Below, piece by piece: positions 2,734-56,903 of a DNA stretch of 64,000 bases. Numbering within the stretch: the first letter of the stretch is position 1; each line of letters begins with the position of its first letter. A model generated the notes under the pieces. The model had not been told where the DNA came from. It saw only the letters and a list, made by a program, of their open reading frames with translations, and did not search any database. This DNA comes from Octopus vulgaris (taxonomy: Eukaryota): the NCBI GenBank assembly GCA_951406725.2, contig OX597840.1:3534001-3598000 (forward strand), given 5' to 3'. A program made the position numbers and the translations under genes.

Positions 2734-3261
2734 GACTGATAGTGCAGTGCATGCCATCAAAGTGACACTGGGGTACAAATATACGAAGCCAAGTATACCA
2801 ATCATGACTAACCGTCTGTTTAAGGTATACTAGGCACATGCATCACAACATGGTGATCTCATATCAGGATAAACAGGTGGGGCCCAGTTACTATTTCCAG
2901 CAGGTCAAGTAGCCCATCCCACTCAAAAGGTTCCTCAATAAGGGTTATTTAAGGATGTTGAACGGACCACCCATGTTTCCAAACGTGAATTATCCAAACC
3001 TCCAAGAATTCCTTTCAACTCATGGCTATGATGCTCCCCCACTACTTCTGCTCGTGATCAGAGATGCACATATCGTCAGCCACTAAGGGACATGCTCAAC
3101 TGGTTATGGTCAAACAACTGACAAGCAAATCTGTGGTATTGAGCAGAATATTTGCTGTAGCCCATCTTTTATACCAAGACAACACAATATACCTGATAAC
3201 ACTTCCAATCAGTTAAAATCAGAAGCCATGAGAACCAGTACCTGTGACTGCATCAGGGCAT
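2734..3261. mobile_element. Unclassified ~530-bp repeat embedded in an (ATT)n tract
   Basis: (ATT)n on both sides; its right end (CACTTCCAATCAGTTAA..AGAAGCCATG..CCAGTACCTG) recurs at 44107-44197, again abutting (TTA)n. Confidence 0.65.
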
Positions 3262-31677: not shown

Positions 31678-31754
31678 CGGGAAGGTTTACGAAAATAAAC
31701 AAAAGACGAAGGCAGGTGGAGTACAAACAAATAAATGTATTAGTATGGCTTCTT

Positions 31755-31969: not shown

Positions 31970-32033
<64 letters not shown>

Positions 32034-32038
<5 letters not shown>

Positions 32039-32373
32039 GTAAAATGATATGTGACAATTATTCGGTAGCCAAGATAAAACTTTGTGCTTCGGATGCCGAG
32101 GTGGAAATCCACACCACCACCTCTTCGGCTATCTGGCCATCTCTTTTAAAATCGAAATTTTCCAAGCCTTCGATCTTGGAAGTGAATGTTTTAGATTTTA
32201 TACGAGTGAAAGATAACCGAAGAGATGGTGTTGTGGATTTCCACTTCGGCATCCGAAACTCAGAGTTTTATCTTGGCTACTGAATAATTGTCACGTATTA
32301 TTTTACAGATAAATTTCCTCTATTTACATAATATTGAGGTCTCTTTCTTTCTTTTGTTATCTTACCGTTTTTA

Positions 32374-32377
<4 letters not shown>
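32034..32377 (+). mobile_element. Family G: (TA)n-embedded element with 101-bp inverted arms, resembling an inverted PLE pseudo-LTR
   Basis: Arms 32034-32134 and 32211-32311 (10 mismatches by eye); the 3' tail TGAGGT..TTTCTTTCTTTTGTTATCTTACCGTTTT recurs at 56862-56903. Confidence 0.8.
32210..32274 (+). ncRNA. Type I hammerhead-ribozyme-like motif with CCGAAGA core
   Basis: Stem I AAGATAA/TTATCTT; core CCGAAGA; stem II GATG..TGGA-TT-TCCA..CATC; GAAA; stem III ACTC-A-GAGT; predicted cleavage after GUU at 32267. Confidence 0.7.
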
Positions 32378-32442
<65 letters not shown>

Positions 32443-32458
32443 ACAAATTAATAAATAA

Positions 32459-32923
32459 AACATATGCATATATACATACATATATGTACGTACCTACATC
32501 TACTTGTATATATACATGCATATATGGGTACAGGACACCAAGAAAAATGTCGAACACAATGAGAAACGAAAACATAAACACAAAACCAAGGAAATGGACA
32601 TTTTTCTTAAACAACGAAAAAATAGAGTACAAGATATATAACACAAGGAAAATTCCCCTTCTTCAGCCGCCTCTGTTTCATCTACTCCGCGTTTCGAAGG
32701 TAAAGGCGAGACACAACTTCCTTGAAACATTATTTCCCACAAAAAGCAAATTAAATAAAATTTGAGATTTTTTTTAGCGGAGGGGTAAAAATGGTAACAA
32801 AAACAGGACAGTAACGACAGTACAAAATATAAACAGTAAAAGACAGGTCAAGGAGAATAACAGTAAGACAGGACGAAAGGAAAAATATTTTGAATGCTTT
32901 TTGAGGACGGCAAGAGAGAGACA

Positions 32924-35390: not shown

Positions 35391-35765
35391 GAAAATATTC
35401 AACAGGCGCTCATAACCAGAAAGAAAAGCTGCATTGTGCTATGTGAAGACAACTTCAAAAATCGCTATACTGACCGCATATCTTTCTTCTAGCACAAGGA
35501 CAAAAGTAAAACTACAACATTAATTAGACGCGCATGGAGTGTGAAGTCTAATGCCACACCACACACTAACAAGTGCAAAATAGCTGAAAAGTCCAAACAA
35601 TATGCCCATGGATGAAAAACATGCATATCTGAAATTTTACAGACCCTTTCCAAATTTAAGAAGTCTACTTCACTGCTAAATTTCAGATCTGAAATGTTCA
35701 ACGGATGTAAACATAGAGATAAGTTCCCGTTGGCGAATTGCAAAATACTACACTCTCCAGATTGA
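35391..35765 (+). pseudogene. Penelope-like element GIY-YIG endonuclease domain, one frame with 2 internal stops
   Basis: CIVLCEDNFKNRYTDRISFF*HKDKSKTTTLIRRAWSVKS..KCKIAEK..KTCISE..LLNFRSEMFNGCKHRDKF matches the PLE pattern YIG..FK.RY..H..SF..LS..W..C..E..LLN.RSE...CRH..KF. Confidence 0.85.
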
Positions 35766-47749: not shown

Positions 47750-49020
47750 GTTGTATCTAGATTGTCAGCTGCTAGTAGCTCCCAATTCATTAACAGGGCG
47801 TATCTTAGGTGACATCTTAAGATAATTCAAACTACAGGTTGTGGAGTTTTAATATAGAGTTGGCAATGCCATCTCTACATGAATATGTGGGACCTTGTGA
47901 ATGATACTATATTTGATATTGAGGAAGGTGTTCCGATGGAGTCTGCAGATGAAACAGGACAAGGAGTGGTGTTTCCTTTACCCCTGCACCTGAAGAAATG
48001 CATTTTCTGTGTATATCTTCCCTTCAAGTCATTGGCTGACATGCCTGTGGATCCACAGAGCACAGCCGTTGAGAAGCAAGACTTTTCTAGTGTGCTGTCG
48101 GTAGGATTCGGGGAGTTACAAGTTGGGATGGGTATTGGAGGCTGTTAAGTTGTGTGTTTGCGTCTTTTGTAGCATGCGATGTTACAAGATGAGTTGTCTA
48201 AGCAGGAGTAACATACCTTGACGTTGTGGGAGTCGAAAAGTTTATGATAATTATGCGTTTTTTTACCCAGAACGAATCATCGGGAACCAAGACTGATTTT
48301 CTATCGTTCATGATAATTCTGATATCGAGGTCACTGATATTGGCGAATTGCCAAGCAAACTATAGAGCCATTAGGAAGAGGGTTTCGATATTGAAGGAAA
48401 GGAGTCCACATTATCAATCTAGGTAAATATTAGGGCTATTTATTCTCGATGCCGCAGAACAGGTCAATTACTACAGTCCTGCAATTCAGCTGGGTCAAAC
48501 CCATGGTCAGTCTAATATCTGAGTTTGATAATATCGAAAACACGCTTATATGCTATATCTATTTCGCACTTAGAGGGGTTAAACACCCTGCAATCAAAAT
48601 TAAATATGAGTGGGTTTATCATCCTTAGACAGGATATATCGGGCGTGGGGAAGCATGACATAGAAATTCATACGATCCTCAATATTTAGAAAGTCGGGCA
48701 GCTCTTTCGCTTCAATGTTTGTTATATGTAGAGAGGTTCCTTTCTTTGTATGTTTGGATGATTTAGCTTGAATATGTCTTGTGAGCGTGGAAATGTTCGT
48801 CTCATATAATTATTTTTGTTTTATCGATGAAATTATGTATATTTTGTAATTGTTTTATTTTTTGCAGGTAGTGTTTAAAGAGATAAGAAACAGATTAGGA
48901 GAATATCGAAATTTTATCTTCTTTATCATAAGGTCAGCTTCAAAGTCCTCGATGACCTTTAGCCAAGAAGGGCATTTGCGGGGTTTAAAAAGCAGAATTT
49001 CCTTGCGAGATATTGTGGAC
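47750..49020 (-). pseudogene. Decayed, internally deleted Penelope-like retroelement (N-terminus, RT start, GIY-YIG endonuclease)
   Basis: [28 protein letters not shown]; CRVFNPSKCEIDIAYKRVFD; FAWQFANISDLDIRIIMNDRKSVLVPDDSFWVKK; then GMSANDLKGRYTQKMHFFRCRGK (endonuclease). Confidence 0.85.
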
Positions 49021-56861: not shown

Positions 56862-56865
<4 letters not shown>

Positions 56866-56900
56866 GTATCTTTCTTTCTTTTGTTATCTTACCGTTTTAT

Positions 56901-56903
<3 letters not shown>
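56862..56903 (+). mobile_element. 3'-terminal 42 bp of family G inside (TA)n
   Basis: Near identical to 32335-32377. Confidence 0.75.

What the first reader, a model, noticed from the sequence alone, without database searches (positions are those of the whole stretch)
32034..32377. Hammerhead-like ribozyme built into a 101-bp inverted repeat inserted in (TA)n
Seen: the right arm folds as a complete type I hammerhead. It has a 7-bp stem I (AAGATAA/TTATCTT), a CCGAAGA core, an extended stem II, GAAA, a near-palindromic stem III (ACTC-A-GAGT) and a GUU site at 32267. The left arm is a ~90% identical antisense copy whose GAAA is GAAG. The element has no ORF, and its last 42 bp recur alone in another (TA)n at 56862, as expected for 5'-truncated retrotransposition. 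Known: PLE pseudo-LTRs carry hammerheads with short palindromic stem III and can be inverted. Inference: a non-autonomous, ribozyme-processed retroelement whose transcript can fold either as the ribozyme or as a long dsRNA that would block cleavage and attract ADAR or Dicer.
Basis: partly seen in the sequence, partly recalled or inferred. Interest (0 to 1): 0.72.

Follow-up and report, generated by a model that had tools for sequence, protein, structure and literature searches.

The report
Truncated Hydra-clade Penelope insertion, variant hammerhead
This stretch is two back-to-back scraps of the end of an abundant, protein-coding Penelope-like jumping gene, likely left by a truncated insertion in a TA repeat in an already described layout; its self-cutting RNA motif carries a core change, shared by the family's likely youngest branches, that is predicted to slow cutting.

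Summary
The inverted repeat (91/101) and the type I hammerhead motif are real, but this is not a separate non-autonomous element. The right arm is the 3' end (pLTR plus tail) of a Penelope-like retrotransposon with at least 6,200 hammerhead copies in this genome. Its intact 708-aa ORF has the Hydra-clade marks (RWK, DKT, CxCX5C, GIY-YIG-like end) and a telomerase-like predicted fold. The 'spacer' is a piece of that ORF. An inverted copy plus a tail on one end, inside (TA)n, is the published PLE layout. The left arm is much more diverged, so the arms likely came from two templates. The core is not canonical: CCGAAGA is U4C. Older subfamilies keep U4 (58/59 copies). The most homogeneous ones have C4 (54/54), G10.1-U11.1 and a broken distal stem I pair, yet include intact ORFs. 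Covariation is mostly within shuffle range, there is no A>G strand bias, and a test for 5' ends at the cleavage site was inconclusive. The 'ribozyme versus dsRNA switch' is a by-product of the inversion. The scan reached this reading at many other places in this genome. Ordinary, apart from a testable ribozyme-decay series.

The parts
31974..32036 (.). (TA)n target tract, left
   Evidence: family copies end in (TA)n
32037..32142 (-). Inverted pLTR copy without the tail, subfamily S2 type, ending at the fixed 'short' 3' end TTTTACAG|ATA; 6 private changes
   Evidence: maps to reference positions 3169-3058 of full-length copy L057
32066..32139 (-). Hammerhead motif of the left copy: full stem I, U4C core, GAAA changed to GAAG (A15.1G), stem III disrupted; predicted dead
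   Evidence: self-duplex of its stem III -2.3 versus -9.2 kcal/mol for the intact one
32143..32151 (-). 9-nt linker of unknown origin at the jump between the ORF piece and the pLTR
   Evidence: not matched
32152..32212 (-). 61-nt piece of the 5' part of the element's RT ORF (about +160 to +219 from the ATG), ending at GAAAATTTCGA
   Evidence: one search hits full-length elements; reference positions 485-424, 85%; best relatives 88.5-90.7%
32211..32377 (+). Direct 5'-truncated pLTR copy with tail, subfamily S3 type, 2 differences from its class majority; shares 2 nt with the ORF piece at the inversion junction
32211..32273 (+). Type I hammerhead motif: 6-bp proximal stem I, CCGAAGA core (U4C), long interrupted stem II, GAAA, palindromic stem III, predicted cut after 32267; distal stem I partner lost by truncation
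32312..32377 (+). 66-nt 'tail' present on one arm only; runs into the 5' UTR in tandem copies; ends at the fixed 'long' end TTTTACCAA|TA
32378..32439 (.). (TA)n target tract, right
56862..56903 (+). Solo 42-bp tail end of the same family in another (TA)n; likely an independent, severely truncated insertion of another subfamily

Best explanation
The 341 bp are two head-to-head fragments of the 3' end of an abundant protein-coding Penelope-like retrotransposon with Hydra-clade marks, likely left by a truncated target-primed insertion into a TA repeat, and not a self-spreading ribozyme element. Shown: both arms and the spacer map onto full-length copies; the family has two fixed 3' ends 68 nt apart, both at an ATA that can pair with (TA)n; spacers differ between loci. 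Inferred, by analogy with the Poseidon element of Frangieh 2024: the GIY-YIG domain nicks the TA tract, and reverse transcription starts at the two fixed sites, one per side. That yields a tailed copy and an inverted tail-less copy, each ending early. On the left, the RT likely jumped from the base of hammerhead stem I to a site about 219 nt into the ORF. The left arm likely came from an older, already decayed template. The hammerhead is the ordinary pLTR ribozyme motif, predicted to work as a dimer or with protein help in the full-length RNA. At this locus it is predicted inactive: the left copy has lost A15.1, the right copy has lost distal stem I, and any read-through RNA would form a 100-bp duplex. 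The U4C change was inherited from the source elements and likely attenuates cleavage.
For:: 2564 first-look candidates for the element, 40 scored, the 167-bp unit at 96-98% identity. L056, L057 and L059 carry this unit twice, about 3.07 kb apart around the ORF; L059 also has an inverted 104-nt copy; two intact 708-aa ORFs in a tandem, head-to-head array. RWK at 37, DKT at 114, CxCX5C at 557, IYE...YVG at 577, YKDD at 346, as Craig 2021 section 11 defines Hydra; model pLDDT 90.4, top structural match telomerase RT (E 1.2e-9); of 166 unique hammerhead copies, 73 stop at the short end before (TA)n, 60 at the tail end before (TA)n, 7 run into the 5' UTR, 26 other or unclassified. Craig 2021 Fig. 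2 text describes the inverted 5'-truncated copy and the one-sided tail. Frangieh 2024 ties the tail to two RT start sites and finds that hammerhead mutants do not affect insertion in vitro; left arm 6 private changes in about 98 nt, right arm 2 in 167 nt.
Against: No cleavage, transcription or transposition was measured. Pfam found nothing on the 708-aa ORF at E 0.01; GIY-YIG scored only E 0.0029, below its cut-off, on a piece. The tail is 66 nt, longer than the 30-40 bp in Craig 2021. The tree did not root the subfamilies. The unequal decay of the arms also fits two successive insertions. Clean 5' joins at the cleavage site were more frequent than at a control site (51 of 100 listed of 124, against about 23 of 69), so some in vivo cleavage is not excluded.
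Confidence: 0.92

Rival explanations
1. Same element, but the U4C hammerhead stays functional: it cleaves as a dimer or with help from the element's protein and processes the multimeric RNA in vivo.
For: Stems I-III and the other core letters persist through all subfamilies, and most subfamily-level changes at paired sites keep pairing (five keep, one creates, two break). A U4C viroid hammerhead keeps infectivity despite low in vitro activity (Perreault 2011). The Poseidon hammerhead is protein-assisted. A second, unrelated hammerhead-like repeat here also reads CCG in 7 of 10 copies. Modest excess of joins at the cut site.
Against: Covariation measures other than percent paired are within shuffle range. 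S4/S5 also lost G10.1-C11.1 and a distal stem I pair; the hammerhead-fold energy goes from about -17 to -8 kcal/mol. The join excess is confounded by AT-rich microhomology and unequal pattern acceptance. Only 3 of 186 copies start at unit positions 61-70 (a sample biased to intact hammerheads).
Confidence: 0.35
2. The window holds two successive insertions: an old S2 chimeric copy, into which a younger S3 copy later inserted head-to-head, rather than one event with two templates.
For: The arms differ at three linked subfamily-diagnostic sites and by 10%, the most of 32 non-S1 head-to-head pairs. The left copy's ORF piece is also about 10% from its nearest relatives. The Poseidon endonuclease cuts its own pLTR junction.
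Against: The ends are exactly those of a single insertion, short end on one side and tail on the other, with no TA tract between the arms. Mixed-subfamily pairs occur at other loci (L016, L027, L088).
Confidence: 0.25
3. One reading: a non-autonomous, ribozyme-processed retroelement (retrozyme-like) whose RNA switches between ribozyme and dsRNA.
For: Hammerhead motif, no whole ORF, high copy number of the short unit. Chimeric ORF-to-hammerhead joins at the same ORF site recur at L002, L003, L018, L035.
Against: Those joins have different junction letters and different subfamily arms. No shared 341-bp unit was found among the 40 scored loci. No tandem short repeats like those of non-LTR retrozymes were seen. 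No A>G strand bias (42/5388 against T>C 59/7547).
Confidence: 0.03
4. A MITE or other DNA transposon with terminal inverted repeats that targets TA.
For: About 100-bp inverted repeats in a TA tract.
Against: One arm extends by a tail, the inner ends vary from copy to copy, many copies have one arm only, and the unit flanks an RT ORF.
Confidence: 0.01

Closest known systems
Hydra clade of C-terminal EN+ Penelope-like elements (Craig et al. 2021, PMC8557442)
   Same: Short (<3.1 kb) single-ORF element; RWK, DKT, CxCX5C motifs; (TA)n targeting; pLTR hammerhead with palindromic stem III (ACTC-A-GAGT then U, identical to Penelope-3_HM in File S2); inverted truncated copy and one-sided tail.
   Different: All 25 Hydra families (26 rows) in File S2 have a CUGA core; the younger subfamilies here have CCGA. 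Stem II is longer and interrupted. The tail is 66 nt.
Hydra-1_Obim (Octopus bimaculoides; Craig 2021 Files S1/S2)
   Same: Homologous ORF start (27 of the first 43 residues identical, counted by eye); (TA)n preference.
   Different: Different hammerhead stems and a canonical core, so a distinct family. Searches of that supplement for three motifs of this family found no match to its hammerhead.
Poseidon PAc of Anolis (Frangieh et al. 2024, PMC11167929)
   Same: Two fixed ends that define a tail; AT-rich targets; hammerhead in the pLTR.
   Different: Different PLE clade. There RT starts inside the ORF at sites not homologous to the target; here both ends lie upstream of the ORF at an ATA that matches (TA)n.
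Non-LTR retrozymes (bioRxiv 10.64898/2026.07.22.740005, first fifth read)
   Same: Type I hammerhead related to PLE pLTRs, no coding capacity in the short copies.
   Different: Retrozymes are tandem arrays of a fixed unit; these copies are variably truncated ends of an autonomous element.

Membership tests
Penelope-like elements (EN+) | Single ORF with telomerase-like RT | tested here: met
   708-aa ORF; top Foldseek match telomerase RT, E 1.2e-9; homologs carry PF26215/PF28514; no Pfam RT hit on the ORF itself
Penelope-like elements (EN+) | C-terminal GIY-YIG endonuclease | tested here: inconclusive
   IYE...YVG motif at 577-598; Pfam GIY-YIG E 0.0029, below cut-off
Penelope-like elements (EN+) | pLTRs from partial tandems, inverted 5'-truncated copy, one-sided tail | tested here: met
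Hydra clade | RWK motif, DKT for DKG, CxCX5C linker | tested here: met
   positions 37, 114, 557; definition
Hydra clade | CCHH motif absent from the endonuclease | tested here: inconclusive
   not aligned to CCHH-bearing PLEs; only a crude histidine scan
Hydra clade | Insertion into (TA)n | tested here: met
   133 of 166 copies end against (TA)n
Hydra clade | Phylogenetic placement among published Hydra RTs | not tested
   published sequences were only read in the supplement, not used in a call
Canonical type I hammerhead ribozyme | Core CUGANGA...GAAA...UH | tested here: not met
   U4C in both window arms, A15.1G in the left; met in older subfamilies (58 of 59 S0/S1 copies; 1391 CTG motifs)
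Canonical type I hammerhead ribozyme | Three helices supported by covariation | tested here: inconclusive
   91.2% of cells paired against 90.9% shuffled (11/500); covariation score 51/500; pairs changed on both sides 159/500; several columns fixed by the search pattern
Canonical type I hammerhead ribozyme | Self-cleavage | not testable with these tools
   needs an assay
Non-LTR retrozyme | Tandem array of a fixed short hammerhead unit | tested here: not met
   tandem units seen are the 2.58 and 3.07 kb full-length elements
MITE | True terminal inverted repeats with constant interior | tested here: not met

The most novel reading that the evidence does not exclude
One PLE lineage disarmed its own ribozyme while it kept spreading. 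Over six successive subfamilies the pLTR hammerhead fixed U4C, then G10.1-U11.1 and a broken distal stem I pair, and the most homogeneous subfamily, the one with intact ORFs, has the weakest ribozyme. The motif would then be kept as a structural or protein-binding element, not a catalyst. A second octopus repeat with a CCG core hints at convergent attenuation.
Probability: 0.4. Interest if true: 0.5.

Novelty: new member of a known kind. Interest (0 to 1): 0.25.

Why it matters
The locus itself is transposon debris. The family matters modestly. Craig 2021 calls hammerhead function in EN+ PLEs unclear, and Frangieh 2024 found cleavage unnecessary in vitro for one element. Here a natural, age-ordered series from a canonical core (S0/S1) to U4C (S3-S5) within one lineage allows a direct test: if the youngest amplifying subfamily cleaves poorly, self-cleavage is dispensable in vivo too.

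Tried and rejected
Rfam scan: no hammerhead family hit, only microRNA-type hairpin noise. ADAR editing of templates: A>G 42/5388 against T>C 59/7547, p=1.0; the left arm's 3 A>G of 6 changes tie the top of 161 classified copies but are matched by L155; rejected as evidence. My idea that U4C creates a core-sequestering CCGAAG:CUUCGG helix: predicted probability 0.00-0.02 in family sequences; rejected. Footprint of cleavage as 5' ends at the cut site: 124 pattern hits against 69 at a control site; by eye 51 of the 100 listed were clean joins, 19 stem-I microhomology inversions, 30 internal changes, against about 23, 37 and 9 of 69; confounded, inconclusive. Hot spot for RT jumps at ORF position about +219: matched design gave 3 junctions, 1 deletion and 2 point changes of 6, against 0 junctions of 1 at one control site; the other breaks are spread, and the cluster is inflated by how loci were fetched; suggestive only. 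Rooting subfamilies with 38-42% identical outgroups failed. Expression: no RNA holder on record; contigs of guessed-RNA runs hold the element, and none covered the window's private spacer at 32166-32193; no evidence either way. No convincing host exon among the 100 longest of 282 window frames (three frames gave weak Pfam hits, all below cut-off). No solved relative by sequence. Literature: searches returned no paper on U4C fixation in PLE subfamilies. The library lacks many papers, Lünse et al. 2017 on PLE hammerhead variants (recalled, not seen) may cover it, and the repeat library of Bonar 2026 was not among the supplements held, so the family may already be catalogued. The sequence look-up in earlier findings gave nothing.

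Full report
Observation. The element folds as one hairpin of -174 kcal/mol, z -21. The right arm alone folds no better than shuffles (z -0.71), and its minimum-energy fold is not the hammerhead. Rfam gave no hammerhead hit. The core CCGAAGA is a U4C variant of CUGANGA.

The family. The genome is 2.8 Gb in 227 contigs, likely an octopus (inference; earlier notes say the same). A search with the element gave 2564 first-look candidates, of which 40 were scored; the 167-bp right unit matched at 96-98%. Pattern counts give 5109 hammerhead motifs of one type and 1096 of an older type. Oriented copies show a constant design: an inverted copy that stops at TTTTACAG|ATA, a variable interior, and a direct copy with a tail ending TTTTACCAA|TA. 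Of 166 unique copies, 73 stop at the short end and 60 at the tail end before (TA)n, 7 run into a 5' UTR, and 26 are other or unclassified. The two ends are 68 nt apart, and both sit on a TTTTAC-NN-ATAAATT-like motif.

The autonomous element. The 'spacer' found full-length elements. L056, L057 and L059 carry the unit twice, about 3.07 kb apart. A tandem head-to-head array holds two intact 708-aa ORFs in 2.58-kb units. The protein has RWK, DKT, CxCX5C, YKDD and an IYE...YVG motif, the marks given for the Hydra clade in Craig 2021 (PMC8557442; I saw the outline, passages, section 11 and part 2 of the supplement). Its model (pLDDT 90.4) matches telomerase RT best. Pfam did not recognise it, and GIY-YIG scored below cut-off on a piece. 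It is a different family from Hydra-1_Obim, whose hammerhead differs.

Anatomy of the window copy. On the L057 reference, the left arm maps to 3169-3058, the spacer to 485-424 of the ORF region, and the right arm to 3066-3232. So the left copy is an ORF piece joined through 9 unmatched letters to a tail-less pLTR, and the right copy begins inside stem I. The left arm is S2-type with 6 private changes, including A15.1G and two in stem III. The right arm is S3-type with 2 differences in 167 nt. Their 10% distance is the largest among 32 non-S1 head-to-head pairs and is matched or exceeded only by S1 pairs among all 38. The arms therefore likely had different templates, or arose in two steps.

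Mechanism. Craig 2021 describes the inverted 5'-truncated copy and the one-sided tail as typical of PLE insertions. Frangieh 2024 (PMC11167929; parts 1-2 of 4 read) shows for a Poseidon element that both strands of AT-rich DNA are cut and extended, that two RT start sites define the tail, that hammerhead mutants do not change insertion in vitro, and that the ribozyme needs the protein. I infer the same course here: priming at the two fixed sites on either side of a nick in (TA)n, early termination, and joining. 5' ends cluster at the palindromic TGGCCA base of stem I (30 of 186 copies at unit positions 2-5; sample biased to intact hammerheads).

The ribozyme series. I classed copies by diagnostic sites into S0-S5 (my labels). 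Mean distance to the class majority over 74 nt falls from 0.081 (S0) and 0.053 (S1) through 0.031, 0.018, 0.020 and 0.013 to 0.006 (S5). S2/3 and S3 were partly selected for likeness to the window, which lowers their values; S5 loci were picked by me from the list. Arm-to-arm distance within insertions agrees: S5 0-3%, S1 6-13%. Linked ORF ends form a ladder of identity to S5: S4 89-93%, S2/3 88%, S1 82%, S2 81%, S0 76% (one or two copies each for the older classes). U4 is present in 29/30 S0, 29/29 S1, 3/10 S2, 1/11 S2/3, 2/26 S3, 0/20 S4 and 0/34 S5 copies (9 of 169 rows with shifted 3' ends were dropped). Genome-wide, 1391 of the 5109 motifs read CTG, 96 of 100 listed S0 motifs do, and 52 of the 100 listed are S5-type by eye. 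All 25 Hydra families in File S2 have CUGA, so U4 is likely ancestral; the tree itself did not root the series. S4/S5 also change C11.1 to U and break one distal stem I pair. Perreault 2011 (PMC3088659; passages and section 8) states that U4C lowers activity considerably in vitro but allows viroid infectivity. Cervera and De la Pena 2014 (PMC4209133; parts 1-2 of 4) found low, dimer-dependent activity for metazoan PLE hammerheads. Covariation across 101 copies is weak: only percent paired exceeds most shuffles (11/500).

Results against extras. There is no A>G strand bias. The core-sequestering helix is not predicted. Joins at the cleavage site are more frequent than at a control site but confounded. 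A jump hot spot at ORF +219 is suggestive only. Expression could not be judged.

Comparison and verdict. It works like, and by motifs, layout and target belongs to, the Hydra-clade PLEs; phylogenetic placement was not tested. It fails the tests for retrozyme and MITE, and for a canonical hammerhead core. Bonar 2026 (PMC13282606; part 1 of 3) lists 30 recently active Penelope families in Octopus vulgaris; its library was not visible, so the family may be catalogued. Earlier scan notes reached the same reading at other loci, one of them noting an unusual core letter. Verdict: an ordinary truncated PLE insertion, new member of a known kind, interest 0.25, with a testable ribozyme-decay series as the one open lead.

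Noticed in passing
window 46522 (+) and 25076 (-); flanks of fetched loci: A second, unrelated minimal hammerhead-like repeat (CCGACGA-A-GAGC...GCTC-GAAACG) also shows a U4C-type core: CCG in 7, CTG in 2, CCA in 1 of 10 copies among the loci held. The 25076 motif has a different stem II.
   Followed up: partly
G000:C1:57208300-57223300 (L164, L165): Head-to-head array of near-identical 2.58-kb units with intact 708-aa ORFs; short end on one side, tail on the other.
   Followed up: yes
L002, L003, L018, L033, L035, L050 and the window: ORF pieces ending at or within 7 nt of the same site (about +219) are joined to the 3' end by different junction letters; possible RT landing site.
   Followed up: partly
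family-wide: The distance from ORF end to hammerhead shrinks from about 900 nt in S0-S2/3 to about 700 in S4 and about 200 in S5.
   Followed up: no
G000:C31 and C39 (L044-L049, L052, L053): Near-identical copies that begin in a (GATA)n tract at the short-end site and lack the upstream hammerhead; likely segmental duplicates of one insertion.
   Followed up: no
window 35424-35732 and 48888-48986: Weak protein matches to the Hydra ORF (32% over 106 aa, E 2e-8; 54% over 35 aa, E 0.003), likely remnants of other PLE families.
   Followed up: no
window 32640-32720 (-): Hammerhead half-motifs (GAAACG and CTGAAGA) in reversed order within another repeat; not a complete motif.
   Followed up: no
window 31680-31750: End of another very abundant repeat next to (TA)n; very deep contig cover.
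   Followed up: no
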